This document shows positions 19,208 to 47,916 of a stretch of 64,000 nucleotides of DNA, one piece after another (the first letter of the stretch is position 1; each line of letters starts with the position of its first letter). The notes under the pieces are model-generated. The model had not been told where the DNA came from and searched no databases. It worked only from the letters and a program-made list of their open reading frames with translations. This stretch comes from Planctomycetales bacterium (GTDB taxonomy: Bacteria; Planctomycetota; JAKEIC01): assembly GCA_022614695.1 (NCBI GenBank), contig JAKEIC010000342.1, positions 4,012 through 68,011 on the forward strand. The letters are read 5' to 3'. The position numbers and the translations under genes are program-made.

Positions 19208-19213
19208 CGCGCC

Positions 19214-21412: not shown

Positions 21413-21415
21413 GAT
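21410..21415 (+). promoter_or_regulatory. TAGGAT -10-like hexamer on the P4 stop, 6 nt before GTG 21422
   Basis: Read directly: aagTAGGATcgcgtcGTGcgc. Confidence 0.4.
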
Positions 21416-21421
21416 CGCGTC

Positions 21422-23896
21422 GTGCGCGGCGACGCGGCACCGATGACATCCGGCCCCACAGTCGAGCCTCGCGCCTTCCTCGCCGACTTCGGCCTCGCGA
21501 AAGCCGTCGCGACCGGCTCGAAGCTGACCCGCACTGGCCAGGCCCTCGGCACCCCGGCGTACATGTCACCCGAGCAGGCGCGGGGGGAGGTCTCCGCGCT
21601 CACCCCCGCGACGGACCTGTGGAGTCTCGGGTGCGTCCTCTACGAGATGCTCGCCAGCCGCCCACCGTTCGAGGGCGACACGGACGCCGCTGTGGTGGGC
21701 AACGTCATATTCGCGGAATCGCCGAGGCTGCGGACCCTCCGGGCAGACGTCTCGCAGGGCCTCGAGTGCGTCGTGCGGGTATGCCTTGGGAAACGCGTCC
21801 AGGACCGGCACACGGAGGCGGGGGCGCTGAGGGACGACCTCGACCGCGTGCTCCGAGGCGAGAGGCCGACGGCGCGTCCCGACGGGTCATGGGTGCGGAA
21901 GGCCGCGGTGGCCGCCCTCTGCGTGGCCTCGGTCTCGTGGGCCGCTGCCTACACCTTGCGGGGGCGGGGGCCGGAGGGACTCCCCGCGACAGCCTCCTCC
22001 TCGCCTTCGGCCGCGGAGGCGCTCGCGACCAGGGCCCGGGCCCTGCGGCAGTCGGACCCCCGCCGGGCGGCCGAGGTCCTCCGGGCGGCGCTCGAACGGG
22101 AGCCCTCGCGGGACGACCTGCGGCTAGAGAGGGGCCTCCTCCTCTGGGCGGTCGGAGAGAACGCGGAGGCCCGCGAGGAGTGGGGCCGGATCGGGTACGG
22201 GTCCTCCGAAGGGACGCAGGCGAAGCTCTTCCTCGCCCTCGAAGTGTTCTTCCGGATGGCGGGAGCCGAATCGCGGCCGCACCTCGTGGCCCTGAGGGAG
22301 GCCCCGGGCCGGGTGGGAAGTCTCGCTCGCGGGGCCGTCCGGGTGCTCGACAGTGAGTGGTCGCGGGCCCGGGAGGACCTCAGGGGAGTCGAGGGCTGGG
22401 AGGCGCACCTGCTCCGGGGCTACATCGAGAGTTGGGACCCCGCGGGCGACCGCGCGGCGGCGGTGCGGGCGTACGGGTCCGCACTCGACTCCTGGATACC
22501 CTTCGCCTGGGCCTGGAACAACCGCGGCGTCGCGAGGCGGGCGATCGGGGAGGACGCGGGGGCGGTGGCGGACTACAGCCGTGCCCTCCAGCTGGACCCC
22601 CGCTACGCGGAGGCCTGGAACAACCGCGGCAACGCGAAGGGGCGCCTCGGGGACCACGCCGCGGCTGTGGCGGACCTGGACCGCGCCCTCGAGCTCAACC
22701 CGCGGTACGCGGATGCCTGGAACAACCGCGGCGCTGCGAAGCGGGCCCTCGGGGACTACGCGGGGGCTGTGGCCGATCTCGACCGCGCCCTCGAGCTCGA
22801 CCCGCGGTACGCGACGACTTGGCACAACCGCGCTGTCGCGAAGCAGGCCCTCGGCGACCTCGCGGGAGCGATCGCGGACTACGGACGAGGCATCGAGCTG
22901 GACCCGCGGCTCCCGGCGGCCTGGAGCAACCGCGCTGCCGCCAAGGCCGCCCTCGGCGACCTGGCGGGGGCGATGGCAGACTGGGACCAAACCCTCGGGA
23001 TCGACCCGCAGTTCGCGGAGGCGTGGAACAACCGCGGCGGAGCGAAGCGGCTCCTCGGCGACCCCGCCGGGGCCCTGGCGGACCTGGACCATGCCCTCGG
23101 GCTCGACCCGCGGTCCGCGTGGACTTGGCACCACCGTGGACTCGCGAAGCGCGACCTCGGGGACCTCGCGGGGGCGGTGGCGGACCTGGACCGCGCCCTC
23201 GAGCTCGACCCGCGGAACGCGGGGGTCTGGAACAACCGCGGCCTCGCGAAGCGGGACCTCGGGGACCTCGCAGGGGCGGTCGCGGACCTGGACCGCGCCC
23301 TCGAGCTCGACCCGCGGCTCGCGGTATCCTGGTCGAACCGCGGCGCGGCGAAGCGGCGACTCGCGGACCACGCGGGAGCCGTCGCGGATCTCGATCGCGC
23401 CCTCGAGCTCGATCCGCGGAACGCGGCAGGCTGGGCGGACCGCAGCCTCGCGAAGCGGGACCTCGGGGACCCCGCAGGGGCGGTCACGGATGGCAACCGC
23501 TCCCTCGAGCTCGACCCGCGGAACGCGGCGGCCTGGAACATTCGCGGAGTCGCGAAGAGGGACCTCGGAGACCTCGCGGGCGCCCTCGAGGACCTCTCGA
23601 CCGCGATCCGCCTGGCGCCGGAGGGCCCATTCGGCTACAGCAACCGCGGTCTCGTGTTCGCGGGTCTCGGCCGCCTCGACGAGGCCCTCGCCGACGCCGA
23701 GAAGGCCCTCTCGATGGACCCGAAGGGGCCCTACTACGCCTACGCGGCCCGGGGGCTCGTGTTCATCCGGCAGGGGAAGCACGCGGCGGCCCTTGCCGAT
23801 CTCGAGCGCTTCGAGTCGCTCGCGATACCGGCCGACCCGCTCCGGAAGGACGTCGCCGCCTGGAAGGCGGAGGCGGCGCGGGGAGCGCCGAAGTAG
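21422..23896 (+). CDS. N-lobe-less kinase C-lobe - TM - long TPR array protein, array copy P5
   Basis: Same N-terminal block, here with AFLADFG. The ectodomain contains about 12 consecutive 34-aa TPRs. An alternative ATG lies at 21443. Confidence 0.8.
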   Translation: MRGDAAPMTSGPTVEPRAFLADFGLAKAVATGSKLTRTGQALGTPAYMSPEQARGEVSALTPATDLWSLGCVLYEMLASRPPFEGDTDAAVVGNVIFAESPRLRTLRADVSQGLECVVRVCLGKRVQDRHTEAGALRDDLDRVLRGERPTARPDGSWVRKAAVAALCVASVSWAAAYTLRGRGPEGLPATASSSPSAAEALATRARALRQSDPRRAAEVLRAALEREPSRDDLRLERGLLLWAVGENAEAREEWGRIGYGSSEGTQAKLFLALEVFFRMAGAESRPHLVALREAPGRVGSLARGAVRVLDSEWSRAREDLRGVEGWEAHLLRGYIESWDPAGDRAAAVRAYGSALDSWIPFAWAWNNRGVARRAIGEDAGAVADYSRALQLDPRYAEAWNNRGNAKGRLGDHAAAVADLDRALELNPRYADAWNNRGAAKRALGDYAGAVADLDRALELDPRYATTWHNRAVAKQALGDLAGAIADYGRGIELDPRLPAAWSNRAAAKAALGDLAGAMADWDQTLGIDPQFAEAWNNRGGAKRLLGDPAGALADLDHALGLDPRSAWTWHHRGLAKRDLGDLAGAVADLDRALELDPRNAGVWNNRGLAKRDLGDLAGAVADLDRALELDPRLAVSWSNRGAAKRRLADHAGAVADLDRALELDPRNAAGWADRSLAKRDLGDPAGAVTDGNRSLELDPRNAAAWNIRGVAKRDLGDLAGALEDLSTAIRLAPEGPFGYSNRGLVFAGLGRLDEALADAEKALSMDPKGPYYAYAARGLVFIRQGKHAAALADLERFESLAIPADPLRKDVAAWKAEAARGAPK
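22511..23734 (+). repeat. in-frame 102-bp tandem repeat (about 12 units) encoding TPRs inside P5
   Basis: The unit start (g/a)c(c/t)tgg(a/c)acaaccgcgg recurs at 22511, 22613, 22715, 22817, 22919, 23021, 23123, 23225, 23327, 23429, 23531 and 23633. Several neighbouring units are near-identical (..GDLAGAVADLDRALELDPRNA..WNNRGLAKRDL). Confidence 0.8.
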
Positions 23897-33299: not shown

Positions 33300-33866
33300 G
33301 TGAGGACCCTCGTCGAGGAAGCCCGCGTCACGTGGCGGGGCCGGGACCTCTCCGTGACCACCTACCTCCGGTTCCCGGACTCCCTCCGCCAGGAGGTCCG
33401 CGGCGAGGGCTACGAGGGGACCTCGGTCCTGGTGGGCGACCGGGCGGTCTTCCGCCAAGGCCCTCTCGCGGGACCGCTCGCGCCCGAGGACGCCGCGCTC
33501 CTGCGCGAGCTGCGAAAGAACTGGGTCCCGCTCCTCGGGGCGGAGGGGGACGCCCTGGAAGCCCTCCCGCGCGAGACCCGGGGGGGACGCTCTTGCGACG
33601 CGATCCTTGCGCGCGATGCCCGCGGCCGCGCGCGGCGCTTCCTCCTCGACGCGGAGACCGGCCTCCTCGCCGCGGTCGTCGCACGGCCCGAGGCGCCCGG
33701 GACGCCCGAGGTCGAGTACTCCTACGGCGACTGGAGGCGGGTCGGGAGCCTCCTCTGGCCCCACGAGGTCCGGATCTCGACCGGAGGCGTCGTCACGAAG
33801 GAGATCCGGACCGTGAAGGTCGTTGCGAACGAGGACCTCCCCGGGGCGCTCTTCGAGATGCCGTAG
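33300..33866 (+). CDS. hypothetical protein (LolA-like / lipoprotein-sorting-fold guess); true start probably upstream
   Basis: The first canonical start is the GTG at 33300. However, the same frame is open from 33135 and encodes a lipoprotein-like signal (see findings). Confidence 0.45.
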   Translation: MRTLVEEARVTWRGRDLSVTTYLRFPDSLRQEVRGEGYEGTSVLVGDRAVFRQGPLAGPLAPEDAALLRELRKNWVPLLGAEGDALEALPRETRGGRSCDAILARDARGRARRFLLDAETGLLAAVVARPEAPGTPEVEYSYGDWRRVGSLLWPHEVRISTGGVVTKEIRTVKVVANEDLPGALFEMP

Positions 33867-33878
33867 CGGCCGGTCAAC

Positions 33879-33907
33879 TTGTCGAGCCCTCCCCAGTCCG
33901 CTACCCT
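33879..33907 (+). promoter_or_regulatory. TTGTCG-N17-TACCCT promoter-like element, 8 nt before GTG 33916
   Basis: Read directly. The geometry would give a leaderless or near-leaderless K2 transcript. Confidence 0.3.
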
Positions 33908-33915
33908 CGACTCCG

Positions 33916-36612
33916 GTGCCCTCCGCCGAAGACCTCGTCCTCGGACGGCTCGCGGTCGAGAAGGGGCTCGTCCCTGCGGAGACCGTCGAGAGGTGCCTCG
34001 CGGCGCGCGAGGAGGGGGCCGCTGAACCGCCCTTCTCCGAGGCGCTCGCCGCCGAGGCGAGACTCGACGGGGAGCAGCGAGCCGAGCTCGACGCCCTCGC
34101 CGTCCAGGCGAAGAAGGTCGCCACCCGGCGGATCCTGCGCGAGGACCAGAAGTTCGGGGAGCTGGCCGTGGCGCGCGGCCTGCTCAAGCGCGAGGCGCTC
34201 GAGGAGGCGCTCGCCTCCCAGCGGTCGCTCCTCGAGCGGGGCCTGAAGAAGCGCCTCGGGGCGCTCCTCGTCGGCCGCGGCGACTTGACGCCGGCGCAGG
34301 TGCGCGACGTGCTCGCGGCCAAGGAGGAGGCGATCCTCGCCTGTCCCGAGTGCCACGCCCGGTGGAACGTCTTCGGATTCGCCCCGGGCCGCAAGGTGGA
34401 CTGCCCCCGCTGCCACCGTACGCTCGCGACGACCGACGCCGGGGCCCCGGTGGACGTCGAGGACACCCTCATGCTCCCCTCGATCGAGGCGCTGGAGGAG
34501 GCCCGGCCGAAGGGTCGGCCGCCGCCCGGGCGGACGAGGCTCGAGGAGAAACGGGCGTTCGGCGACTACGAGATCGTGCGGGAGCTGGCCCGGGGGGGGA
34601 TGGGGATCATCTACGTGGCGCGCCAGAGGCGGCTCGGGCGGACGGTGGCGCTGAAGGTGCTCCTCGCGGGCGAGGGGGCGACCGAGGAGATGGTCGCGCG
34701 CCTGCACCACGAGGCGCAGGCGGCCGCCAAGCTCCGCCACCCCCGCATCGTCGCCGTCCACGACGTCGGGGTCCACGAGGGGTCGCACTACATCTCGATG
34801 GACCTGATCGAGGGGGAGACCCTCGAGAAGGTCCTGAAGGAGCAGGGCCACGTGTCGCCGAGGCGCGCCGCCGAGCTCGCCCGCGACCTCGCCGAGGCCC
34901 TCTCCTACGCGCACGGCGAGGGGATCGTGCACCGGGACTTGAAGCCGGCGAACGTCCTCCTCGACAAGGACGGCAACCCGTTCCTCACCGACTTCGGTCT
35001 CGCGAAGGACCTCACCTCCGAGAAGGGCCTCACGGGAGCCGGCGCGATCCTCGGGACGCCGGACTACATGTCCCCGGAGCAGGCCCGCGGGCAGGCCCGC
35101 AAGGTGGACGCGCGCAGCGACGTCTTCTCGCTCGGCGCGGTCCTCTACCACGCGCTCGCCGGGCGGCCGCCGTTCTTGGCGAAGACCTCCATGAAGACCA
35201 TGGCGAACGTCGTCTCGCGGGACCCGGAGCCCCCGAGCCGCGTGAACCCGGCGGTCCCCCGGGATCTGGACGCGATCGCGCGCCGGGCGCTCGAGAAGCG
35301 TCCGGGGGACCGCTACGCGACCGCGGGCGAGATGGCGGAGGACCTGGAGCGGTACCTCGCCGGCGAGCCGGTGGAGGCCGCGGCGCCGAGCCCGCTCCGG
35401 GACCTCCTGCGGAGGCTCCGGCGGGACCGGACGCTCCAGGTGACGCTCGGCGTCGGCGTGGCGGCGTGCGCGGCGGGCTCGATCGCCACCGGGCTCCTCC
35501 TCGGCGGCGGCGGGGGCGGGGCCGGCCCCGGCGGGAAGGCGGGGAGGCCGGCCTCGGCGGGGGGCTCCTCCGCGGCGGAGAGGGTCCCCGAGGCCCCGGC
35601 CCTGGACCTGGCCGGCGTCTTCCGGACCCGCCACGCCGCGGCGGAGGCCGCCACGGCCCGGGCCCTCGCGGCGCCCGCGGCCGACTTCGAGGCGCGCGAG
35701 AGCGCGCTCAAGGCCGCGTACCTCCAGTACGCCGACCTGCTCGAGCTCGCGAGGCGCGACCCCGACACGCGCAAGAGGATCGCGTCCGACGAGGGGCTCC
35801 GGAAGCTCGCCGACGTCGAGGGGAAGCTCTCCGACGTGCGCCGGCGCCTCTCCGACGTGCACGTGGACCGAGCCGCGTCGCGCGGGGCCGAGGCCGAATG
35901 GGCGGAGGCCGAGTACAGCGCCGCGCTCGCCGACCTCGCCCGCGCCGTCGAGGTGGACTCTCGGAACGGGAGGGCCTTCGCGCTTCGCGGCAAGCTCCGC
36001 GCGCTCCGGGGCTGGTCGGTGAAGTCGCGCCCGTGGCCGGGGGCCGACGAGACCCTCTGGGACCTCCGCAAGGCGATCGAGCACGAGCCGCGCGACGGGG
36101 CCTCCCACGCCTGGTACGCCGTCGCCCTCGCCGACGTCGGGAAGATCGCCGAGGCCCTCGCCGCCTGCGACGAGGCGGCACGCCTCGCCCCCCCGGGGGA
36201 GCCGGCGGTGCCGTACGCGCGGGGATGGGCGCAATTCCTCGTGGGCTCCGAAGGAGGCGAGGGCGCCGGGAAGTGCCTCGAGAGGGCGGAGGCCGAATTC
36301 CGGGCCGCCTGGGAACTCGCGCGGAAGTCGGTGGACCGCCTGCAGGCTGCCCGCGCGGCGGTGAACCTCGCGATGGTGCTCGACCAGAGGAAGCGCGCCG
36401 TCGAGGGGATCGCGGTCCTCGACGAGTTCCTCCGGGGGGTCGCCGACGACGACCGGGGGCGGTGGGCCGTCGAGGGGAGGGTCGTCCGGGGCTGGCTCCA
36501 CGAGAGCTCCGGGGCGCCGGCGAAGGCGCTCGCCGACTACGAGCGCGTGGTCGCCCTCGTCCCGAACCACCGGTTCGCGACGGAGAGGCTCCAGGCGCTC
36601 CGGGGGAAGTAG
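33916..36612 (+). CDS. Ser/Thr protein kinase with MshEN-like N-terminal repeats, Zn-ribbon, TM and TPR ectodomain (K2)
   Basis: MshEN-like 24-aa motifs at 34150-34323: KFGELAVARGLLKREALEEALASQ, a 10-aa spacer, then RLGALLVGRGDLTPAQVRDVLAAK. Zn-ribbon CPEC..CPRC. The kinase motifs are complete: GRGGMGIIY, VALKVL, HRDLKPANVLL, DFGLAK, SPEQ. A TM helix and TPR-like C-terminus follow. Confidence 0.9.
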   Translation: MPSAEDLVLGRLAVEKGLVPAETVERCLAAREEGAAEPPFSEALAAEARLDGEQRAELDALAVQAKKVATRRILREDQKFGELAVARGLLKREALEEALASQRSLLERGLKKRLGALLVGRGDLTPAQVRDVLAAKEEAILACPECHARWNVFGFAPGRKVDCPRCHRTLATTDAGAPVDVEDTLMLPSIEALEEARPKGRPPPGRTRLEEKRAFGDYEIVRELARGGMGIIYVARQRRLGRTVALKVLLAGEGATEEMVARLHHEAQAAAKLRHPRIVAVHDVGVHEGSHYISMDLIEGETLEKVLKEQGHVSPRRAAELARDLAEALSYAHGEGIVHRDLKPANVLLDKDGNPFLTDFGLAKDLTSEKGLTGAGAILGTPDYMSPEQARGQARKVDARSDVFSLGAVLYHALAGRPPFLAKTSMKTMANVVSRDPEPPSRVNPAVPRDLDAIARRALEKRPGDRYATAGEMAEDLERYLAGEPVEAAAPSPLRDLLRRLRRDRTLQVTLGVGVAACAAGSIATGLLLGGGGGGAGPGGKAGRPASAGGSSAAERVPEAPALDLAGVFRTRHAAAEAATARALAAPAADFEARESALKAAYLQYADLLELARRDPDTRKRIASDEGLRKLADVEGKLSDVRRRLSDVHVDRAASRGAEAEWAEAEYSAALADLARAVEVDSRNGRAFALRGKLRALRGWSVKSRPWPGADETLWDLRKAIEHEPRDGASHAWYAVALADVGKIAEALAACDEAARLAPPGEPAVPYARGWAQFLVGSEGGEGAGKCLERAEAEFRAAWELARKSVDRLQAARAAVNLAMVLDQRKRAVEGIAVLDEFLRGVADDDRGRWAVEGRVVRGWLHESSGAPAKALADYERVVALVPNHRFATERLQALRGK

Positions 36613-38159: not shown

Positions 38160-38187
38160 TTGACCCTCCCGGCGCCGCTACGATAAT
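38160..38187 (+). promoter_or_regulatory. sigma70-like promoter TTGACC-N16-GATAAT
   Basis: Read directly: aTTGACCctcccggcgccgctacGATAAT. GGGAGG lies in the short leader before the ATG at 38214. Confidence 0.5.
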
Positions 38188-38213
38188 AGCCTCGGGAGGT
38201 TAGCGCCCGAACC

Positions 38214-41200
38214 ATGCCGCTCCGCGGCGATCTCGCCAGCTTCAGCCTCGCCGAGATATTCCAGTCCCTATCCATGAACCAGTCCTCCGGCACCCTCATG
38301 GTGAGCGACGGGGAGAACCGGCGGCTGCTGGTCTTCCGCAACGGCGTCCTCTCCCTCGTCGGCCACGGGCGCGCCTACGTCCCGAAGCTCGGGGAGTTCC
38401 TCCTGCGCAAGAACGTGATCGGGGAGGAGGCCCTCGCGAAGGCCCTCGCCCTCCAGAAGGAGAGCGGGGGGCTCCTCGGCGAGGTGCTGGTCCGCGAGAA
38501 GATCGTCACCGAGAAGCAGATCCGCGAGGCGGTCCGCGAGAAGCTCGAGGAGGAGATCTACGACCTCTTCCTCTGGAAGAACGCCTTCTTCGAGTTCAAG
38601 AAGGACCAGTTCCCGGAGGGCACGGAGGCGGCGGGGGCGGCCCCGGCGGCCGGGGCGGCCGCGCCCGAACGGTCGGAGACCGGCACCGCGCTCACGTTCA
38701 ACACGAGCACGATCCTCATGGAGGCGGTCCGCCGCGTGGACGAGTGGGGGCGGATCACCGAGAGCGTGCCGACCCTCCGGATGATCTTCGTCCCGCGGGC
38801 CGAGGCCGCGCCGGAGCGCCCCGTCGGGGAGTGCCCGATCCCGCCCGCCCGCCTCTGGCCTCTGCTCAAGCGCGAGAACGCCGTCCGGGACCTGATCGAG
38901 GCCTGCGCGGTCTCGAAGTTCGACGTCTGCAAGAGCCTCGACGCCCTGGTCCGCGTGGAGGAGGTCTCGCCGCTCCCCGCGGGGGACCTGGACCTCGCGT
39001 TCCAGGACGCGCTCCGCGGCTCCCGCTACGACCTCGGGGCGCGCTACATCGAGTACGCGATGGACCTGGGGGGCCAGGCGAGGGACGTCCGCGAACGGAT
39101 GGTGAAGGCATACCTCGGCGAGCGGGGCGTCGGGGCCGCGCCCGACCCGTGCCGGCTGACCGGGACGGTCGAGCGCTTCGACCTCCCGGGCTTCCTCCAC
39201 GCCGTGCTCCTGAGACGCCTCACGGGGACGCTCCGGGTGCGCGACATCGAGAGCGAGAGGATCCTCTACGTCTCCCCGGAGGAGGTCATGCTCCTCTCCC
39301 GAGGCCCGCGCGAGACCCCCAAGCTCGGGCAGGTGCTCCTGCGCGCGGAGAAGCTCACGCCCACCGACCTGGACCGGGCGCTGACGGTGCAGCGCGAGGA
39401 CCCCCGTCGGCTCGGCGAGATCCTCGTGGACCGCGGGGTCCTCCGGACCGAGGAGGTCGAGGAGGCCGTCCTCACGAAGGCGGTCCAGGAGCTCTTCGAC
39501 CTGTTCCTCTGGCGGAACGCCTACTTCGAGTTCACCACCCGGACCCGGGCCGAGGAGCTCACGGCGCCCGGGGCGAGGCCCGTCCGGCTCGCCCTCTCGG
39601 GGGGGACGCTCAAGGAGCTGGTCGCCCGGATCGTGAGGGCGGGGGACATCCTCGCCAAGGTCTCCTCCTCGCGGGCGATCCTGACGCCCGTCCGCAAGGA
39701 GGGCCGCCACTCCCGGGGCCGCACGACCGAGGAGGACGTGCTCGCGCTCGTGAACGGCGTCCGGACCGTCGGCGACATCTTCCGGCTCACGCCCCGCTCC
39801 TCGGCCGAGGTCTGCGAGGTGCTCTACGCCCTCATGAACCAAGGGGCGGTCCGGCCGCTCACGCTCGCGGAGGCCCGTGAGGCGGCCGAGGCGGCGCTCG
39901 CCGAGGGCCAGGTGGAGATCGGCCTCAAGATGTGCGCCCACGGGCAGGAGCTCGCGCCCGACGACCCGGGGCTCAAGACGATCTTCGAGGAGGCGCAGGC
40001 CCGCCGCCCCGACGCGGGGGAGGCCACGCGCGAGTACCGGCTCGAGGGGGACCTTGAGAGCTTCAGCCTGGCCGAGCTCGTGCAGTCCCTCTACCTGAAC
40101 AAGCACTCGGGCACGTTGCGCGTGAAGGACGGCCGGCGCGAGAAGATCGTCTACTTCGCGCAGGGCACGATCTCGCTCCTCACGCGCGGCCACCAGGAAG
40201 TCTCGCGCCTCGGCGAGATCCTGGTGGACGCCGGGAAGGTCTCCGAGTACGACGTCGAGCGCGCCCTCGAGGAGCAGCAGGGGACGGGCAAGCGCCTCGG
40301 CGAGCTGCTGGTGGAGCGCGGGCTCGCGACCGAGGAGGACATCCAGGAGGCGGTCGAGGAGAAGGTCCGGGACGAGCTGTTCGACGTGTTCCTCTGGCGA
40401 AACGCCACGTTCGAGTTCCTGAAGAACTACTTCCCGGACGAGTTCACGAACCCAGACGCCCCGGTGACGCGCCTCGCGCTCGACACGACGCGCACCCTCA
40501 TGGCGGCCATCTCGCGCATTGAGAAGTGGGAGGAGCTCACGCGGGAGCTCTCGAGCGTGAAGGCGGTCTACCGCCGCACGGGCGTCGCGCCGGGACCCGA
40601 GCTCTCCCGCCGGGCGCGGGTCCTCCTCGAGCCTGTGGACGGGCGGCGGACCGTCGAGGAGCTGCTCGAGGAGTCGCCGGCGGGCCGCTTCGCCGCCGCC
40701 CAGGCTCTCGCGGAGCTCAAGCGCGCGAACCTCGTCCGGCCGCTCGTCCTCGACGAGGTGAACGCCGAGGCCGAGCGGGCGTTCGAGGAGCGCGACTTCG
40801 AACGGTGCGTGAAGTACTACGAGTACGCGCTGCAGCTCGACGAGGGGAACGAGTTCCTCAAGCGCTACATCGCCGAGGCCAAGGGCAACCTCTCGCAGTT
40901 CGACGCGATGCGGGTGCGGATGAAGCCCTTCGACCTCGTGAACCTCTTCCGGACGATCGTCCGGGGGAGCGCCACGGGGACACTCTCGGTGCGGGACGGG
41001 GCGAGCAGCCGGCTCGTCTACCTCGGGCAGGGCGAGGTGGCGTGGCTCGACGAGGGACCGCGGGAGGGGCCGTCGCTCGCCGACGTGCTCCGGCAGGGCG
41101 GGCGCGTGCCGGAGAAGGCGCTGACCCGGGCGGTCGAGTTCCAGAAGCGGACCGGCCGCGACCTCCTCGAGGTGCTCGAGAAGCAGGGGGCGCTCACCCC

Positions 41201-42704
41201 GGAGGCGGGCCAGGAGGCGCGGTCCGAGGCCGCCCGCGCCATGCTCTGGGACCTCTTCTCCTGGCGCGAGGCCTCGATCGAGTTCGAGCGCTCGAGCTAC
41301 CCGCTCCGGCTCGACGAGGCCTCGCTCCCGGTCTCGCGGGCGGCCCTCCCCGTGGCCGACCTCCTCTCCGGGCTCGCCGAGCGGCGCGAGGAGTGGGACC
41401 GCTACCGGAATGCCCTCCCCTCCGAGAGGCTCATCCTCGTCGCCGCCGAGCGCGAGAGGGGGGCGCCGCTGCTCCGCCGCCACAAGGAGAACCCGACGCT
41501 GCCCCTCGTGGACGGCCGGCGGACGGTCGCGCAAGTGGTCCGCGAGTCGGGCCTCTCCGAGTTCGACGCCTTCCGCTCCCTCCACGACCTGGTGACGGGC
41601 CGGGTCGTCCGGGCCCTCACGGCGGAAGAGTCGGTGAAGGCCGCCGAGAACGCCTGGGTCTTCAAGGACCTCCCCGCCTGCGAGGCCTTCTACGAGCACG
41701 CCCTCGAGGTGGACCGCGGCAACGCCGAGGTGCTGCGGAGGCTCGAGCTGCTGCGGCGCGGCCAGGAGACGCAGGTGCGGCGGCGCCTCACCGAGGAGTT
41801 CGGCCGCAACAAGGACCTCTCGGCGATCCTCGAGGCGGTCCGGCGCGACGCGCGATGGGGGACGCTCGAGGCGACCGTGCAGGACTCGGTGCGCTGGGTC
41901 CACTTCGCGGAGGACCGGGTGACTCTACTCTCGCGCGGGAGCCGGCCCGGTCGCCGCCTCGGCGAGATTCTCGTCGAGGCCCTGCGGGCCACCCCCGCCC
42001 AGATCGAGAAGGCGCTGGCCGCGCAGCCCCGGCTCAAGAAGCGCCTCGGGGAGATCCTCGTGCTCCAGGGGGTCCTCGGCGAGCGCGACCTGGTGGCGAT
42101 GGTCCGCGAGAAGATCCTGGAGGACCTCCACGAGCTCTATTCCTGGGAGGACGCCGTCGTGCGCTTCGCCGCGGGGGACCCGCCCGCGGAGATGACGGCG
42201 GCCGGGGCGCCGGTCGCGGCCTGGGAGGGGGACGCGGCGGCCCTGATCGCCGAGGCCCTCGAGCGGGAGAGGACCTGGCCCGACATCGCGACGACCATCC
42301 CCTCGGGGAACGCGATCTTCGGGCGCAAGGACCGGCCGGCGGGCGGCGGGGAGGCGCGCCGAGGGGAGGCCGGAGGGACGGGCGGGGCGAAGAACCCCGT
42401 CCTCGCGCACATCACCGGGCGCCGGTCGGTCGCCGAGGTCTGCGCCCGGGCGGGGGTCCCCCGCTACGAGGCCCTCGCGGCGTTCCTCCGGCTGATCCGG
42501 AACGACGTGATCCGCCCGCTCGAGCCGGAGGAGTGCCGCCGGCGGGGCGAGGAGGCCTACCTCGCGAACGACCTCCCGGCCGCGGCGACGTTCCTCAGGT
42601 TCGCGGTGGAGCTGGACGGTGCCGACGAGCGGGCCCGCAAGCGCCTCGAGCGGATCGAGGCCACCCTCGGCCGGGCGAGGGTCGGTGGGGGAGGGCGGGA
42701 ATGA
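38214..42704 (+). CDS. 1496-aa protein of five tandem PATAN/DUF4388 modules, each with an inserted MshEN-type (T2SSE_N-like) motif pair
   Basis: Modules start at about 38214, 39150, 40036, 40911 and 41811. The DUF4388-like openings are GDL.SFSLAE..QSL.....SGTL.V. The 24+5+24 motif pairs lie at 38385-38543, 39321-39479, 40206-40364, 41073-41231 (degenerate) and 41955-42113. Each is followed by DLFLWRNA.FEF. Confidence 0.85.
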   Translation: MPLRGDLASFSLAEIFQSLSMNQSSGTLMVSDGENRRLLVFRNGVLSLVGHGRAYVPKLGEFLLRKNVIGEEALAKALALQKESGGLLGEVLVREKIVTEKQIREAVREKLEEEIYDLFLWKNAFFEFKKDQFPEGTEAAGAAPAAGAAAPERSETGTALTFNTSTILMEAVRRVDEWGRITESVPTLRMIFVPRAEAAPERPVGECPIPPARLWPLLKRENAVRDLIEACAVSKFDVCKSLDALVRVEEVSPLPAGDLDLAFQDALRGSRYDLGARYIEYAMDLGGQARDVRERMVKAYLGERGVGAAPDPCRLTGTVERFDLPGFLHAVLLRRLTGTLRVRDIESERILYVSPEEVMLLSRGPRETPKLGQVLLRAEKLTPTDLDRALTVQREDPRRLGEILVDRGVLRTEEVEEAVLTKAVQELFDLFLWRNAYFEFTTRTRAEELTAPGARPVRLALSGGTLKELVARIVRAGDILAKVSSSRAILTPVRKEGRHSRGRTTEEDVLALVNGVRTVGDIFRLTPRSSAEVCEVLYALMNQGAVRPLTLAEAREAAEAALAEGQVEIGLKMCAHGQELAPDDPGLKTIFEEAQARRPDAGEATREYRLEGDLESFSLAELVQSLYLNKHSGTLRVKDGRREKIVYFAQGTISLLTRGHQEVSRLGEILVDAGKVSEYDVERALEEQQGTGKRLGELLVERGLATEEDIQEAVEEKVRDELFDVFLWRNATFEFLKNYFPDEFTNPDAPVTRLALDTTRTLMAAISRIEKWEELTRELSSVKAVYRRTGVAPGPELSRRARVLLEPVDGRRTVEELLEESPAGRFAAAQALAELKRANLVRPLVLDEVNAEAERAFEERDFERCVKYYEYALQLDEGNEFLKRYIAEAKGNLSQFDAMRVRMKPFDLVNLFRTIVRGSATGTLSVRDGASSRLVYLGQGEVAWLDEGPREGPSLADVLRQGGRVPEKALTRAVEFQKRTGRDLLEVLEKQGALTPEAGQEARSEAARAMLWDLFSWREASIEFERSSYPLRLDEASLPVSRAALPVADLLSGLAERREEWDRYRNALPSERLILVAAERERGAPLLRRHKENPTLPLVDGRRTVAQVVRESGLSEFDAFRSLHDLVTGRVVRALTAEESVKAAENAWVFKDLPACEAFYEHALEVDRGNAEVLRRLELLRRGQETQVRRRLTEEFGRNKDLSAILEAVRRDARWGTLEATVQDSVRWVHFAEDRVTLLSRGSRPGRRLGEILVEALRATPAQIEKALAAQPRLKKRLGEILVLQGVLGERDLVAMVREKILEDLHELYSWEDAVVRFAAGDPPAEMTAAGAPVAAWEGDAAALIAEALERERTWPDIATTIPSGNAIFGRKDRPAGGGEARRGEAGGTGGAKNPVLAHITGRRSVAEVCARAGVPRYEALAAFLRLIRNDVIRPLEPEECRRRGEEAYLANDLPAAATFLRFAVELDGADERARKRLERIEATLGRARVGGGGRE

Positions 42705-42913
42705 GGGTGCGCGTGCCGAGCGTGTGGAGAGCCCCCGGGTCCGGTGGTAGACTCCCGCCCCCCCGCGGGGCGAGTGCGGGGAGGTGACGCATCGCCGATC
42801 GCGAGACATTCTCCCGGCGCGCGACGGACCGGCTGCGGGCGCTCGCCCGCTCCATCCAGCAGAAGGAGGAGGTCGAGCACTCCTTCGCGGCCACCCGGCG
42901 CAAGCAGTTCAAG

Positions 42914-43609
42914 ATGCTCCCGGACCCGCCGCAGGTCCCGGGCTACGACTTCGCCTGCTACTATAACCCGGCCGCGACGCTCTCCGGCGACTTCTTCGAT
43001 TTCATCCCGGTCTCCGAGCACGAGCTCGGGATCGTCGTGGGGGACGTGACGGGTCACGGGCTCGAAGCGGCGTTCATCATGGCGGCCGCGAAGAAGGCCA
43101 TCAGCATCCTCGGCCAGGGGAAGTCCTCCCCGCGCGAGGTGCTGGCCGCGGCGAACGAGAACCTCCACGCGGACTTGGATGAGATGACGTTCGTCTCGGT
43201 CTTCTACGGGATCCTCGACCGGAGGACGAAGGTCCTCTCGCACGTCCGCGCGGGCCACAACCCGACGATCCTCCTCAACCCGGACCGGCCGAAGCCGGTG
43301 GAGGAGCTGCGGCCCCGCGGGATCGTGGTCGGGATGCAAAGGGGGGAGTCGTTCCTGAAGTGCACCGAGGAGGTGAAGACGCCTCTACAGGTGGGCGACA
43401 CCGTCGTCCTGTACACCGACGGGATCATCGAGGCCAAGAACGCCGCCGGCGTCGAGTACGGCAAGGAGCGGATGATCCGCCTCCTGCAGGAGCACGGCCG
43501 CAAGAGGATGGCCGAGACCTTCGGCGCCTCGATCGAGGACTTCGCCTCCTTCCTCGACGGGGCCGAGCAGGAGGACGACATCACGCTGGTCGGGTTCCGG
43601 GTCCTGTGA
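42914..43609 (+). CDS. PP2C/SpoIIE-family protein serine/threonine phosphatase (conservative start; probably begins at 42791)
   Basis: SpoIIE-type blocks are present: SGDFFDF, VVGDVTGHGLEAA, FVSVFYGILD, RAGHNP, LYTDGIIEA and DDITLVGFRV. Confidence 0.85.
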   Translation: MLPDPPQVPGYDFACYYNPAATLSGDFFDFIPVSEHELGIVVGDVTGHGLEAAFIMAAAKKAISILGQGKSSPREVLAAANENLHADLDEMTFVSVFYGILDRRTKVLSHVRAGHNPTILLNPDRPKPVEELRPRGIVVGMQRGESFLKCTEEVKTPLQVGDTVVLYTDGIIEAKNAAGVEYGKERMIRLLQEHGRKRMAETFGASIEDFASFLDGAEQEDDITLVGFRVL

Positions 43610-45880: not shown

Positions 45881-46180
45881 CTACCCCTGCGGCGGCGGGC
45901 CCCCCACGACGTCGTAGTGCTCCCGGAACCAGGACTCGGCGGTCCGGAACGCCTCGTCCTCGGAGGGGCCGATCCAGAACATCTCGGTCCGGGCGGGGGA
46001 GCCGAGCCCCGGCCAGCGCGCCGCGTCCTTCACGTCCGGGGGGAACCGGACCGAGACGACCCAGCGGGTCGTCCGCTCGTGCGCGGAGAGGATGACCGTC
46101 GTCTCGAGCGCGGGCTTCACCCCGCGGACCCGGATCGTGACGCGCCTTTCGCCCACGACGGCAGTGTACCTCGAGGTCAC
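45881..46180 (-). CDS. hypothetical 99-aa protein translationally coupled to P6
   Basis: The GTG at 46180 overlaps the P6 stop (GTGA). It has non-repetitive composition (..TVILSAHERTTRWVVSVRFPPDVKD..MFWIGPSEDEAFRTAESWFREHYD). I recognised no family. Confidence 0.4.
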   Translation of the reverse strand: MTSRYTAVVGERRVTIRVRGVKPALETTVILSAHERTTRWVVSVRFPPDVKDAARWPGLGSPARTEMFWIGPSEDEAFRTAESWFREHYDVVGGPPPQG

Positions 46181-47916
46181 CGCCGCGGGGCGGCCGATTC
46201 TCCCTCGCACTCCGCGAGGAGGGCGCGGATCTCGTCGGACCGTGGGTGCTCCGGGGCGAGGCGCAGGAAGGACCGGAGGAGCCCGCTCGCGCGTTCCCGG
46301 TCGCCCGGGCCGCCCCGCTCGGCCAGGGCGCGCCCCAGGTTCGCGAGCACCGGCGGCGCCTCGGGAAGCGCGCGCAGCGCCCCCTCCCAGTCGGCGATCG
46401 CGCCCTCGGGATCCCCGGCGTTCGCTCGGGCGATGCCCCGGTGAGTCAGGGCGACCCCGTGGCCCGGGGCCATCCGGAGGGAAGCCTCGATGTCGGCGAG
46501 GCCCGCCTCCGGGTCGCCCAGTTCCCCTCGCGTGATCCCCCGGTTCACCAGGGCCTCGACGAGCCGGGGGTCGCGCCGCACCGCCGCGTCGAAGTCCTCG
46601 AGCGCGCCCGGAAGGTCGCCCCGGGCCTTCCGCACGTTCCCCCGGACGTAGCGGGCGAACGGGAAGCCTGAGATCCGCGCGAGGGCGGCCTCCGCGTCCG
46701 CCAGGGCGCCCTCCATGTCGCCCGCCCGGAACCGGAGCGCGCCGCGGTTCGCGAGGGCGTCGGCCCAGTCGGGCGACCGCCGGATGGCGGCGTCCATGTC
46801 GGCGAGAGCTCCGGCCCGGTCGCCGAGGGCCTCGAGAGCGATCGCGCGCGCGAGCAGCGCCTCGGGAGCCCCGGGGGCGAGCCGAAGGGCGGCGTCCGCC
46901 TCGCGCAGGCCCCCCGCCGGGTCCCCGAGGCTGTTCCGCGCCTCCGCACAAGCGACGTAGGCCCAGGAGAAGGGAATCCCGATCGCCAGGGCCCGCTCGA
47001 ACTCCCGCAACTCGCCCGTGCGGTCCTCCCGGTCCTGCAGCCGCAGGAGCCACCCCCGGAGCGCCGCCGCTTCCCAGCCCTCCTCCGCCGCGAGGAGGCG
47101 AAGGCCCTCGTCCGATCGTCCGGAGTCGCCCAGGACGAGGGCGCGAGCGAGCCGTCCCCAACGTCCCTCGCCCTTCGCCGCCGCCGCGAGGTCGGGGTCC
47201 TCGATCCCGCCCGCCCACCGCGTGAAGCGCTCGAACGCGCGCCAGAAGCGCGCCTCGGTAGCCTCCGGGGCGTCGTCCGAGACCCGGCCCCACGCGTCCT
47301 GGGCCTCCGCCGACCGTCCCGCGGCCCAGAGGAGGCGGCCCCGCTCGACGAGCCAAGCGTTCCGCCCGGCGTGGGCGGGCTCGAGGGTGAGGGCGCGGCC
47401 CAGGCACTCGGCGCCGGCCGACGGGTCGCTCGCCCGGAGGGCCCCGGCGCGCTCGACAAGGGCCTCGGCCTCGGTAGGACGCCGATCGGGGCCCCGGTCC
47501 GCCGGAGGAGCGACCGGCGTCGGTCGAAGGGCGGCCGCGGCCGACACCGCGACCGTGAGAAGCACCGCCGCCCCGAGGATCCGGCGGCCCGCCCCCGGCG
47601 GCCGCGCGCGCGGGCGCTCTCCGCGGAGCAAGCGTTCGAGGTCGTCGCGGAGGGCTCCCGCGTCTGGGAACCGCGAACGAACGCCCCTCGCAAGGGCCAC
47701 GCGCAGCAGCCGGTCGAGGGCGGCGGGGACGTCCGGGCGGGTCCTCCGGATCGGGGCCGGCTCCCTCGTCAGGATCCCGCCGATCACGGCCGCCGTCGTC
47801 TCCCCGCCCCACGGCGGCCGACCGGCGAGCGACTCGTAGAGGACGACCCCGAGACTCCAGACGTCCGTCCCGGGGCCGAGGCTCGAGACATCGCCGCGAG
47901 CCTGCTCGGGAGACAT
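46177..47916 (-). CDS. N-lobe-less kinase C-lobe - TM - TPR protein, dispersed copy P6 (canonical-start version)
   Basis: The first canonical start gives MSPEQARGDVSSL. The conserved AFLTDFGLAKSVATGSRFTRSGQALGTPSY block continues in frame upstream (47917-48006) with no ATG, GTG or TTG back to the stop at 48157-48159. Confidence 0.65.
   Translation of the reverse strand: MSPEQARGDVSSLGPGTDVWSLGVVLYESLAGRPPWGGETTAAVIGGILTREPAPIRRTRPDVPAALDRLLRVALARGVRSRFPDAGALRDDLERLLRGERPRARPPGAGRRILGAAVLLTVAVSAAAALRPTPVAPPADRGPDRRPTEAEALVERAGALRASDPSAGAECLGRALTLEPAHAGRNAWLVERGRLLWAAGRSAEAQDAWGRVSDDAPEATEARFWRAFERFTRWAGGIEDPDLAAAAKGEGRWGRLARALVLGDSGRSDEGLRLLAAEEGWEAAALRGWLLRLQDREDRTGELREFERALAIGIPFSWAYVACAEARNSLGDPAGGLREADAALRLAPGAPEALLARAIALEALGDRAGALADMDAAIRRSPDWADALANRGALRFRAGDMEGALADAEAALARISGFPFARYVRGNVRKARGDLPGALEDFDAAVRRDPRLVEALVNRGITRGELGDPEAGLADIEASLRMAPGHGVALTHRGIARANAGDPEGAIADWEGALRALPEAPPVLANLGRALAERGGPGDRERASGLLRSFLRLAPEHPRSDEIRALLAECEGESAAPRR

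What the first reader, a model, noticed from the sequence alone, without database searches (positions are those of the whole stretch)
38214..42704. Giant five-module PATAN/DUF4388 protein with four intact and one degenerate MshEN-type c-di-GMP motif pairs
Seen in sequence: five roughly 300-aa modules share the same order. Each has a DUF4388/PATAN-like opening (GDLESFSLAELVQSLYLNKHSGTLRV..), an inserted helical pair, a closing DLFLWRNA.FEF strand, a winged-helix-like part (VDGRRTV.E..) and a TPR-like tail. The inserted pairs fit the published MshEN consensus as I recall it, RLGxx(L/V/I)(L/V/I)xxG(L/V/I)(L/V/I)xxxxLxxxLxxQ, occurring twice with a 5-residue spacer. For example RLGEILVDAGKVSEYDVERALEEQ-QGTGK-RLGELLVERGLATEEDIQEAVEEK at 40206-40364. 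Similar pairs lie at 38385-38543, 39321-39479 and 41955-42113. Module 4 (41073-41231) has lost the RLG residues. Established knowledge: the MshEN fold binds c-di-GMP, and PATAN is a REC-like interaction domain with an alpha-helical insertion. Inference: this is a multivalent c-di-GMP-sensing scaffold. I am not aware of a five-fold concatenation being described.
Basis: partly seen in the sequence, partly recalled or inferred. Interest (0 to 1): 0.75.

Follow-up and report, generated by a model that had tools for sequence, protein, structure and literature searches.

The report
Five-module PATAN c-di-GMP receptor protein
A 166-kDa planctomycete protein strings together five copies of a protein-interaction module, each carrying an inserted pocket of the type that binds the bacterial signal c-di-GMP; it is an unusually large build of known parts, and its gene sits next to a protein phosphatase gene in most related loci where the flank was assembled.

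Summary
Window 38214-42704 (+) is a real 1496-aa gene (GC3 0.97) made of five ~290-aa modules that are 24-34% identical to each other. All five match Pfam DUF4388/PATAN. Each has a 53-residue insert of two 24-residue MshE-type motifs separated by 5 residues.

Four inserts pass the curated NCBIfam c-di-GMP-motif cut-off of 38 bits (46-63 bits). Module 4 does not (21.5 bits) and has lost both critical glycines. The module 3 model is confident (pLDDT 88). Its insert superposes on c-di-GMP-bound MshE at 0.9 A.

Ten orthologues from independent Planctomycetota assemblies keep the same five modules in the same order, so this is not an assembly artefact. Only module 3 is fully canonical. Modules 3 and 5 are the best conserved.

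A PP2C phosphatase gene lies directly downstream in 5 of 6 informative loci. A kinase carrying its own c-di-GMP motif lies upstream in the near clade.

PATAN with this insert, and tandem MshEN domains (up to four), are already known. The five-fold composite module and the phosphatase linkage are new. My verdict is a new variant of a known kind, of moderate interest. Ligand binding is untested.

The parts
38214..42704 (+). Gene for the 1496-aa, 166.6-kDa, pI 5.65 soluble five-module PATAN/MshEN_N protein
   Evidence: ORF; GC3 0.97; Pfam DUF4388 with 5 stretches; no hydrophobic segment, max KD19 1.08; N-terminus MPL(R/K)GDLASFSL conserved in orthologues
38160..38199 (+). Promoter-like site TTGACC-16-GATAAT (38160-38187) and GGGAGG Shine-Dalgarno-like site (38194-38199) ahead of the ATG
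   Evidence: 1 site found against 0.1 expected; sequence. This is a consensus match only.
38214..39149 (+). Module 1 (aa 1-312): PATAN + insert + winged helix + TPR-like tail
   Evidence: DUF4388 90.0 bits; NF053729 57.4 bits
38385..38543 (+). Module 1 MshEN_N insert: KLG.../LLG... First residues are K and L, as in the 6-nM binder PilF GSPII-B. The turn glycines are replaced by N and K.
   Evidence: PMC11731258
39150..40034 (+). Module 2 (aa 313-607)
   Evidence: DUF4388 49.5 bits; NF053729 48.7 bits
39321..39479 (+). Module 2 MshEN_N insert: KLG.../RLG... The turn glycine of half I is E.
40035..40901 (+). Module 3 (aa 608-896), the best conserved module (50-97% identity to the module 3 of orthologues)
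   Evidence: DUF4388 86.7 bits; NF053729 63.3 bits; AF2 pLDDT 88.3, pTM 0.81; identities
40206..40364 (+). Module 3 MshEN_N insert: RLG.../RLG..., all key residues present apart from a terminal K in place of Q. The RLG/turn-glycine core is kept in 8 of 11 family members; in P0006-P0008 the first residue of half II is L.
40902..41783 (+). Module 4 (aa 897-1190)
   Evidence: DUF4388 50.8 bits; folds confidently with the same element order, pLDDT about 85-93
41073..41231 (+). Module 4 degenerate insert: SLA.../DLL... Both critical glycines are lost, and half II also has L17->G, L21->R and Q24->A. It is still predicted to form four helices.
   Evidence: NF053729 21.5 bits, below the cut-off of 38; G11L and G40I abolish binding in MshE (PMC5013675). 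Degenerate in 10 of 11 family members, intact in P0009.
41784..42701 (+). Module 5 (aa 1191-1496)
   Evidence: DUF4388 41.8 bits; NF053729 46.2 bits
41955..42113 (+). Module 5 MshEN_N insert: RLG.../RLG... The turn glycine of half I is L here (G in most orthologues). The glycine and hydrophobic core of half II are kept in all family members; its first residue varies (R, K or L).
42791..43609 (+). PP2C/SpoIIE-type phosphatase gene. The first ATG is at 42914 (231 aa), but conserved protein sequence extends upstream. GGAGG at 42780-42784 followed by ATC at 42791 suggests a 272-aa product.
   Evidence: Pfam SpoIIE 152 bits; 52% identity over 264 aa to the PP2C next to P0007, including residues upstream of the ATG; an equivalent gene lies directly downstream in the P0001, P0005, P0007 and P0008 loci
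33823..36612 (+). Ser/Thr kinase with an N-terminal MshE-type c-di-GMP motif, a Zn-ribbon-like CxxC pair, a kinase domain and TPRs. The likely true start is near 33916.
   Evidence: Pkinase 162 bits; NF053729 39.1 bits at aa 110-166; 48% identical over its full length to the kinase directly upstream of P0004; also upstream of P0001
36600..38141 (+). Gene for an NHL-repeat-like hypothetical protein, lying between the kinase and the target gene (start approximate). Found only in the window and the P0001 locus.
   Evidence: weak NHL hit; 550-aa counterpart in L001; absent between kinase and target in L004

Best explanation
The gene encodes a soluble cytoplasmic adaptor with no catalytic domain. 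It is built from five flexibly linked copies of a ~290-aa composite module.

Each module is a PATAN beta-sheet domain with an MshEN_N four-helix bundle inserted between strands 4 and 5. A long helix, a winged-helix unit and about 1.5 TPR-like repeats follow.

Shown here: the architecture, the fold, the motif state of each module, the conservation of the five-module order, and the gene neighbourhood.

Inferred: the inserts of modules 1, 2, 3 and 5 bind monomeric c-di-GMP as MshE and PilF GSPII-B/C do. Module 3 should bind most reliably. Modules 1, 2 and 5 probably bind with altered affinities because of substitutions at the first residue and the turn glycine. Module 4 is a non-binding structural copy.

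Because each bundle is spliced into a PATAN sheet, ligand occupancy would change the PATAN, winged-helix and TPR surfaces and so change partner binding. That would give a multi-site, possibly multi-threshold, read-out of c-di-GMP.

The most likely partner is the PP2C phosphatase encoded directly downstream. FHA and cNMP-binding-PATAN proteins (in the distant clade) and the upstream MshEN_N-bearing Ser/Thr kinase (in the near clade) are further candidates. On this view the protein couples c-di-GMP level to Ser/Thr phospho-signalling.
For: - Five DUF4388 matches.
- NF053729 is above its cut-off for modules 1, 2, 3 and 5 and below it for module 4.
- Direct sequence match of the module 3 insert to c-di-GMP-bound MshE (5HTL) and to PilF.
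- AF2 module 3: pLDDT 88.3, pTM 0.81.
- Foldseek: 0.9-1.0 A on the c-di-GMP-bound forms at 38-46% identity.
- The K/L first residues of module 1 equal those of PilF GSPII-B, KD 6 nM (PMC11731258).
- G11 and G40 substitutions abolish binding in MshE (PMC5013675), which explains module 4.
- The two-module model has pLDDT 82 but pTM 0.47 and a linker below 50, consistent with beads on a string.
- No other Pfam or NCBIfam domain and no TM segment.
- Ten orthologues at 36-94% identity keep the five modules, with positional orthology.
- PP2C lies directly downstream in 5 of 6 loci with downstream sequence, with a 4-nt overlap at the P0007 locus, and is 52% identical between distant loci.
- FHA and cNMP-PATAN genes follow in two loci.
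- An orthologous kinase with its own c-di-GMP motif is upstream in three loci.
- PATAN domains are documented protein-protein interaction domains (10.1101/2021.06.11.447907).
Against: - No binding measurement exists for this protein, and none was found for any insert verified to be PATAN-embedded.
- The second half-motif ends in K, not Q, in modules 1, 2, 3 and 5. In PilF GSPII-B the Q-to-E changes at this motif position (Q190E alone, plus Q218E) lower or abolish affinity.
- Modules 1, 2 and 5 lack one or two turn glycines, whose replacement reduces binding in MshE.
- Modules 1 and 2 are degenerate in the distant orthologues, so four-site valency is not a family trait.
- The P0006 locus has no adjacent PP2C.
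- The window holds at least 8 kinase genes, so kinase adjacency is weak evidence on its own.
- The PP2C link rests on synteny only.
- pTM 0.47 comes from a shallow 10-sequence alignment and may understate inter-module packing.
Confidence: 0.55

Rival explanations
1. The protein is a type IV pilus or motility polarity regulator, like the PATAN-REC regulators of Synechocystis. Its PATAN modules would bind the PilB extension ATPase and PilC, with c-di-GMP tuning that contact. The neighbouring phosphatase would be incidental.
For: The only functionally characterised PATAN proteins bind PilB1 and PilC (10.1101/2021.06.11.447907). PATAN proteins co-occur with the T4P regulator SgmX in Myxococcus (10.1101/2024.03.11.584430). 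The insert is homologous to the N-terminus of PilB/MshE/PilF.
Against: There is no REC domain. No pilus gene was seen in the window genes scanned or in any orthologous locus. The conserved neighbour is a PP2C, not a pil gene.
Confidence: 0.15
2. The inserts are purely structural 'alpha-clips' that no longer bind nucleotide, as in XpsE and PilF GSPII-A. The protein would be a c-di-GMP-independent scaffold.
For: XpsE and PilF GSPII-A carry recognisable motifs but do not bind. All second half-motifs here end in K rather than Q. Turn glycines are lost in modules 1, 2 and 5. Modules 1, 2 and 4 are free to degenerate in orthologues.
Against: Module 3 keeps R-L-G, the turn G and the hydrophobic triad in both halves in the window and in most orthologues (in P0006-P0008 half II starts with L, an accepted variant). 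Half II of module 5 keeps its glycine and hydrophobic core in all members although its first residue varies. Such conservation of ligand-contact positions down to 36% overall identity suggests selection for binding. K is allowed at the last position in the published relaxed motif. Four inserts exceed the curated HMM cut-off.
Confidence: 0.2
3. The protein is a multi-winged-helix DNA-binding protein whose DNA binding is controlled by c-di-GMP.
For: Each module contains a winged-helix-like unit. There are weak TrmB, HTH_9 and HTH_47 hits.
Against: The protein is acidic (pI 5.65). The winged-helix segments of modules 1-4 have pI 4.6-6.8 and only module 5 is basic. All HTH hits are below the Pfam cut-offs.
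Confidence: 0.05
4. The gene is an assembly artefact that joins separate paralogous single-module genes.
For: Repetitive genes can be mis-assembled. Single-module relatives are very common.
Against: It is one uninterrupted ORF with uniform GC3. Modules share only 60-75% identity over DNA stretches of 84 nt or less, so there is nothing to collapse. Ten orthologues from NCBI, ENA, JGI and Logan assemblies have the same five modules, each closest to its positional counterpart.
Confidence: 0.01

Closest known systems
PatA-type PATAN-REC response regulators (Anabaena PatA; Synechocystis PixG, PixE, LsiR, Slr1594)
   Same: Same PATAN/DUF4388 domain, with an inserted pair of helical hairpins. PATAN acts as a protein-protein interaction domain.
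   Different: Those proteins have one PATAN plus a phospho-receiver domain and act on PilB/PilC. This protein has five PATANs and no REC. Each PATAN is extended by winged-helix and TPR-like parts, and the gene is linked to a PP2C gene.
Vibrio cholerae MshE N-terminal domain (MshEN, PDB 5HTL)
   Same: Two 24-residue motifs with a 5-residue spacer forming a four-helix bundle. The module 3 insert is 36-38% identical and superposes at 0.9-1.2 A.
   Different: MshEN also has the C-terminal T2SSE_N1 subdomain and precedes a secretion ATPase. Here only the MshEN_N bundle is present, spliced inside another domain. Pfam T2SSE_N does not match.
Thermus thermophilus PilF with three consecutive GSPII (MshEN-like) domains
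   Same: Several MshEN-type units in one polypeptide, with one degenerate non-binder (GSPII-A), unequal affinities (6 nM and about 460 nM) and no cooperativity. Module 1 shares the K/L first residues of GSPII-B.
   Different: PilF is a pilus ATPase with three full GSPII domains. This protein has five MshEN_N-only inserts in PATAN modules and no ATPase.
(MshEN)2-4-T2SSE ATPases, and Bdellovibrio Bd2402 (REC-MshEN_N-UNK), listed in Wang et al. 2016 Supplementary Table 4
   Same: Tandem multiplicity of the motif (up to four copies). Bd2402 shows that an MshEN_N-only unit outside an ATPase binds c-di-GMP.
   Different: None is a repeated PATAN composite module. Five copies exceeds the published maximum. 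I could not verify whether the UNK region of Bd2402 is PATAN (one search gave no hit on the fragment available).
Single-module PATAN-winged-helix-TPR proteins with C-terminal beta-propellers or TPR arrays in Planctomycetota (for example P0012-P0019)
   Same: The same ~290-aa composite module at the N-terminus, covering profile positions 1-290 in one stretch. 40,156 cluster representatives match it.
   Different: Those have one module (a few have two or three) followed by other domains. This protein has five modules and nothing else.

Membership tests
PATAN / DUF4388 (Pfam PF14332) | Match to the family HMM above the gathering score (25 bits) | tested here: met
   All five modules scanned separately: 90.0, 49.5, 86.7, 50.8 and 41.8 bits. 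Whole protein 277 bits with 5 stretches.
PATAN / DUF4388 (Pfam PF14332) | Alpha-helical insertion ('alpha-clip', two helical hairpins) inside the beta-rich core | tested here: met
   AF2 module 3: strands 2-6, 26-31, 36-42 and 45-51, then helices 59-65, 71-84, 88-94 and 100-118, then strand 125-130. Module 4 has the same order.
MshEN_N c-di-GMP-binding motif (NCBIfam NF053729; Wang et al. 2016) | Match to the curated 53-position HMM above its cut-off (38 bits) | tested here: met
   M1 57.4, M2 48.7, M3 63.3 and M5 46.2 bits. Not met for M4 (21.5 bits).
MshEN_N c-di-GMP-binding motif (NCBIfam NF053729; Wang et al. 2016) | Two 24-residue motifs separated by 5 residues, with (R/K/L)-L-G at the start of each and both Gly3 residues present | tested here: met
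   Spacing is exact in all five modules. (R/K/L)LG is present in both halves of M1, M2, M3 and M5. M4 has SLA and DLL, so the feature is not met there. Extended consensus from PMC11731258.
MshEN_N c-di-GMP-binding motif (NCBIfam NF053729; Wang et al. 2016) | All remaining key residues: turn Gly10, hydrophobic 17 and 21, Gln24 | tested here: inconclusive
   Only M3 has both turn glycines. M1 has N and K, M2 has E in half I, and M5 has L in half I. Every second half ends in K, not Q; K is allowed in the published relaxed motif.
MshEN_N c-di-GMP-binding motif (NCBIfam NF053729; Wang et al. 2016) | Four-helix bundle fold superposable on the ligand-bound structure | tested here: met
MshEN_N c-di-GMP-binding motif (NCBIfam NF053729; Wang et al. 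2016) | Measured c-di-GMP binding | not testable with these tools
   Requires ITC or DRaCALA on purified modules.
Full MshEN / T2SSE_N domain (Pfam PF05157) | HMM match that includes the C-terminal T2SSE_N1 subdomain | tested here: not met
   No PF05157 hit for the whole protein, the single modules or the isolated inserts, even at E<=10. The insert is followed directly by PATAN strand 5.
PatA-type response regulator | C-terminal REC (Response_reg) domain | tested here: not met
T2SS/T4P assembly ATPases with tandem MshEN (PilF type) | T2SSE ATPase domain | tested here: not met
   TIGR02538 PilB matches only residues 2-55 of its profile at 21 bits. No ATPase domain in Pfam.

The most novel reading that the evidence does not exclude
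The five modules form a graded 'c-di-GMP ruler'. Sites of different affinity would fill successively as c-di-GMP rises: K/L-type module 1, canonical module 3, glycine-substituted modules 2 and 5, and dead module 4 as a spacer. Each occupancy state would recruit or release a different partner. The co-transcribed PP2C phosphatase, FHA proteins and an MshEN_N-bearing Ser/Thr kinase would then be switched at distinct thresholds. This would be a direct, previously undescribed link between c-di-GMP and Hanks-type Ser/Thr phospho-signalling in Planctomycetota.
Probability: 0.2. Interest if true: 0.7.

Novelty: new variant of a known kind. Interest (0 to 1): 0.45.

Why it matters
Planctomycetota have very many Ser/Thr kinases, and how their c-di-GMP signalling reaches its targets is poorly documented (my own knowledge). 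This protein family is currently annotated only as 'DUF4388 domain-containing' or 'hypothetical'.

It offers four things:
- the highest copy number of an MshE-type c-di-GMP site seen in one polypeptide in these searches;
- a natural series of site variants: canonical, K/L-type, turn-glycine substituted, and dead. This series could test the published sequence rules for affinity;
- evidence that the working unit of PATAN proteins is a ~290-aa PATAN-winged-helix-TPR module, larger than the Pfam domain;
- a conserved gene pairing with a sensor-less PP2C phosphatase, which gives a concrete, testable route from c-di-GMP to protein phosphorylation.

It does not introduce a new domain or a new binding principle.

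Tried and rejected
- Pfam T2SSE_N/MshEN HMM: no hit on the whole protein, the modules or the isolated inserts. The NCBIfam motif model was the informative one.
- Literal application of the published relaxed regex: only 3 of the 10 half-motifs match at all 11 constrained positions, so it is too strict to be a useful counter. I replaced it with per-position scoring.
- Testing whether the experimentally proven binder Bd2402 is PATAN-embedded: the 77-aa fragment printed in the Wang et al. supplement gave no Pfam hit.
- Scan of GTDB representative genomes: only two five-module loci were found (one already known), plus three acidobacterial single-module hits. This added no context.
- Upstream context of the distant clade: every contig carrying P0005, P0007 or P0008 starts 50-210 nt before the gene, so kinase linkage there is unknown.
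- Recent duplication or assembly collapse: rejected, because there are no long DNA repeats.
- DNA-binding role of the winged helices: judged unlikely from charge.
- Intrinsic terminator between the gene and the PP2C: none found, but this is uninformative in 72% GC DNA.
Full report
**1. The observation**

The window is 70-78% GC throughout. An uninterrupted ORF runs from 38214 to 42704 on the + strand and encodes 1496 aa. Its third-position GC is 0.97 and its second-position GC is 0.46, which is the signature of a real gene in this genome.

The product is 166.6 kDa with pI 5.65. It has no hydrophobic segment (maximum 19-residue Kyte-Doolittle mean 1.08), so it is a soluble cytoplasmic protein. 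A sigma-70-like site (TTGACC-16-GATAAT, 38160-38187; 1 found against 0.1 expected) and a GGGAGG precede the ATG. The N-terminus MPL(R/K)GDLASFSL is conserved in orthologues.

The protein divides into five modules: aa 1-312, 313-607, 608-896, 897-1190 and 1191-1496. They align over their whole length at 24-34% pairwise identity. Each pair consists of two 24-residue halves separated by exactly five residues.

**2. Family tests**

Pfam DUF4388 (PATAN; shown as PatA_N in the pre-computed annotations) matches the whole protein at E=1.8e-83 in five stretches. It matches each module alone at 42-90 bits against a cut-off of 25.

The NCBIfam model NF053729 ('cyclic di-GMP-binding domain-containing protein, MshE-related', 53 positions) matches at E=1.4e-59 in five stretches. 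Scanned module by module it gives the following scores:

| Module | NF053729 bits (cut-off 38) |
|---|---|
| 1 | 57.4 |
| 2 | 48.7 |
| 3 | 63.3 |
| 4 | 21.5 |
| 5 | 46.2 |

Pfam T2SSE_N, the model for the full MshEN domain, does not match anything here, even at E<=10 on the isolated inserts. The inserts are therefore MshEN_N-only units in the nomenclature of Wang et al..

The module 3 insert also matches the c-di-GMP-bound MshE crystal sequence (5HTL residues 8-58, E=3.6e-6). It matches all three GSPII domains of Thermus PilF (E=1e-20).

**3. Structure**

AlphaFold2 on module 3, using an alignment of 34 orthologous and paralogous modules, gave mean pLDDT 88.3 and pTM 0.81. The order of elements is:
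- strand, helix, three strands;
- four helices (residues 59-118);
- a strand, a short helix (135-138), a strand and a long helix;
- a strand, then three helices and a strand (winged-helix-like, 192-236);
- three helices (TPR-like).

A two-module model (modules 3-4, 10 sequences) has pLDDT 82.2 but pTM only 0.47, and its linker scores below pLDDT 50. Each module folds confidently. That includes degenerate module 4, which keeps its four-helix insert. No fixed packing between modules is predicted, so the picture is beads on a string. The caveat is the shallow alignment.

**4. State of the ten half-motifs**

| Module | First triads (half I / half II) | Other key residues | Reading |
|---|---|---|---|
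| 1 | KLG / LLG | Turn glycines replaced by N and K | Same K/L first residues as PilF GSPII-B, the 6-nM binder. That paper proposes hydrophobic first residues as a predictor of very high affinity. |
| 2 | KLG / RLG | Turn residue of half I is E | Glycine-substituted |
| 3 | RLG / RLG | Both turn glycines and the hydrophobic positions present | The only fully canonical insert |
| 4 | SLA / DLL | In half II: L17->G, L21->R, Q24->A | Both glycines whose replacement abolishes binding in MshE (G11L, G40I) are lost. Predicted dead. |
| 5 | RLG / RLG | Turn residue of half I is L (G in most orthologues) | Glycine-substituted |

In modules 1, 2, 3 and 5 the second half ends in K rather than Q. K is allowed in the published relaxed motif.

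So 'four intact plus one degenerate' is right by HMM score. At residue level the protein carries one canonical site, three variant sites and one dead site.

**5. Orthologues, and the assembly question**

A word-indexed search of 5.8 billion proteins found ten full-length relatives (1444-1530 aa, 36-94% identity, 97-100% coverage). All are from Planctomycetota metagenome assemblies in NCBI, ENA, JGI or Logan. All are annotated only as DUF4388 or hypothetical.

Each module of the window protein is most similar to the module in the same position in P0004 and P0007. Identities are 36-66% on the diagonal and 21-39% off it. The pattern holds for modules 1-3 in P0009, the most divergent of the three compared. 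The five-fold structure therefore predates the divergence of these lineages.

At DNA level the modules share only 60-75% identity over stretches of 84 nt or less. The 'assembly concatenation' refutation is rejected.

Motif conservation differs by position:
- Module 3 keeps R(L/I)G in half I in every family member. Half II is R(L/I)G in most; in P0006-P0008 its first residue is L, and in P0009 a two-residue insertion shifts the register.
- Half II of module 5 keeps its glycine and hydrophobic core in every member, although its first residue varies (R, K or L). Half I is kept in most.
- Modules 1 and 2 are good only in the near clade (window, P0001-P0004).
- Module 4 is degenerate in all members except P0009, where it reads RLGQVVVD...RLGETLVEQG. 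The ancestral module 4 was therefore probably functional.

**6. How unusual is it?**

A profile of the whole ~290-aa module was run against 1.84 billion cluster representatives. It found 40,156 proteins at E<=0.001 and 2,230 at E<=1e-30. Most of the best hits cover profile positions 1 to about 290 in a single N-terminal stretch. The evolutionary unit is therefore PATAN plus winged helix plus TPR-like tail, which is larger than the ~165 residues that the Pfam model spans in these modules.

I counted full modules locally in the listed proteins:

| Full modules per protein | Number of proteins |
|---|---|
| 5 | 11 (this orthologue family only, window included) |
| 4, or more than 5 | 0 |
| 3 | 12 |
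| 2 | 11 |
| 1 | 129 |
| 0 | 2 |

Multi-module proteins accumulate score and would rank high, so a larger concatenation is unlikely to have been missed. Only the best 150 proteins were listed, however.

In the literature, tandem MshEN domains are tabulated up to (MshEN)4-T2SSE. An MshEN_N-only unit outside an ATPase (Bd2402, REC-MshEN_N-UNK) is reported to bind c-di-GMP. The resemblance between the PATAN insert and the N-termini of secretion and pilus ATPases has been noted. PilF is a precedent for several sites of unequal affinity plus a dead one in a single chain.

Full-text searches for DUF4388, PATAN with MshEN, and 'PATAN domain' returned no description of a multi-PATAN protein.

**7. Genomic context**

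| Locus (identity to window protein) | Upstream | Downstream |
|---|---|---|
| Window | MshEN_N-bearing Ser/Thr kinase, then an NHL-like gene | SpoIIE/PP2C (152 bits) |
| P0001 (94%) | Kinase, then a 550-aa hypothetical gene | PP2C |
| P0004 (51%) | Kinase, directly adjacent | Contig ends |
| P0005 (42%) | Contig starts at the gene | PP2C, FHA, cNMP-binding PATAN |
| P0007 (41%) | Contig starts at the gene | PP2C (4-nt overlap), FHA, cNMP-binding PATAN |
| P0008 (38%) | Contig starts at the gene | PP2C |
| P0006 (41%) | Histidine kinase, response regulator, hypothetical gene | No PP2C |

The PP2C proteins of the window and of the P0007 locus are 52% identical over 264 residues. That is higher than the identity between the five-module proteins themselves.

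The upstream kinase has its own NF053729 motif (39.1 bits). It is orthologous between the window and the P0004 locus: 48% identity over the full length, N-terminal motif region included.

The window contains at least eight kinase genes, so I give the kinase adjacency less weight than the PP2C pairing. No pilus, secretion, GGDEF or EAL gene was seen among the window genes scanned or in the orthologous loci.

**8. Interpretation**

The protein has no catalytic domain. It consists only of interaction modules (PATAN, winged helix, TPR-like), each carrying an MshEN_N bundle. The best-supported reading is a multi-site c-di-GMP-responsive adaptor.

The mechanism I commit to is as follows. Monomeric c-di-GMP binds in the four-helix bundle as it does in MshE and PilF. 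Because the bundle is spliced between two PATAN strands, occupancy alters the neighbouring interaction surfaces. The five flexibly linked modules then assemble or release partners. The first candidate partner is the sensor-less PP2C encoded next door, so that c-di-GMP level is converted into Ser/Thr phosphorylation state.

- Shown: architecture, fold, motif states, orthology and synteny.
- Inferred: ligand binding, the number of active sites (between one and four in this organism; probably two conserved across the family), the conformational coupling, and the partner.

Rivals, with my confidence in each:
- a pilus or motility regulator acting on PilB/PilC, like the PATAN-REC proteins (0.15);
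- a nucleotide-independent scaffold whose inserts are structural relics (0.2);
- a DNA-binding protein (0.05), unlikely given the acidic charge;
- an assembly artefact (0.01).

**9. Verdict**

It is correct on the domains, on module 4 and on the plausibility of a multivalent sensor.

What is new is the five-fold repetition of a composite PATAN[MshEN_N]-winged-helix-TPR module as a standalone protein family in Planctomycetota, together with its conserved pairing with a PP2C phosphatase. I rate it a new variant of a known kind, with interest 0.45.

Noticed in passing
window 13047-23896 (+): Five tandem units of about 2.0-2.2 kb start at 13047, 15061, 17248, 19237 and 21445. They are about 75% identical at DNA level over their first 300 nt, and the four called ORFs (15017-23896) are separated by only about 9 nt. 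Each ORF starts at the kinase DFG motif ('EPRAFLTDFGLAK...') and contains only the C-lobe of the protein kinase domain (Pfam profile 139-206 of 263), followed by TPRs. No N-lobe is encoded between them in any frame. A complete Pkinase + FGE-sulfatase gene (10301-13045) lies directly upstream. This array of 'half-kinase' genes is unexplained and may deserve its own look.
   Followed up: partly
window 42780-42914 (+): The PP2C/SpoIIE gene downstream of the target has its first ATG/GTG/TTG at 42914. Even so, the 40 codons before that ATG are conserved at protein level with the orthologue next to P0007 (TDRLRALARSIQQKEEVE...). GGAGG at 42780-42784 followed 6 nt later by ATC at 42791 suggests a non-canonical ATC start and a 272-aa product, rather than the 231 aa called in the related assembly.
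   Followed up: partly
window 33823-36612 (+): The Ser/Thr kinase upstream carries its own MshE-type c-di-GMP motif (NF053729 39.1 bits, aa 110-166 of the ORF) and a CxxC...CxxC zinc-ribbon-like segment ahead of the kinase domain, with TPRs after it. It is a candidate c-di-GMP-regulated Hanks kinase and is conserved at 48% identity next to P0004.
   Followed up: partly
window 10301-13045, 13047-23896, 33823-36612, 46177-47916 (-), 58081-61041 (-): Protein kinase genes are unusually dense here: at least eight kinase or kinase-fragment genes in 64 kb, most of them fused to TPR arrays.
   Followed up: no
window 22400-23719 (+): There are eleven head-to-tail copies of a 102-nt (34-aa, TPR-length) repeat at 62-80% identity, inside the last half-kinase/TPR gene.
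   Followed up: no
L002/L007 6782-7864 and L005 6730-7503: In the distant orthologous loci the operon-like run is: five-module protein, PP2C, FHA protein, then a cNMP-binding + PATAN protein. A second cyclic-nucleotide-sensing PATAN protein is therefore encoded alongside.
   Followed up: no
L002, L005, L006, L008, L009 (contig starts): Every contig carrying P0005, P0007 or P0008, from different assemblies, begins 50-210 nt upstream of the five-module gene. This suggests a recurrent assembly break, perhaps a repeat or a hard-to-assemble region, just upstream.
   Followed up: no
L011 (DYIT01000020.1): The contig carrying orthologue P0006 is titled 'Candidatus Kuenenia stuttgartiensis isolate FI88_62_9' in its record. 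I did not check whether that taxonomic label is right for this bin.
   Followed up: no
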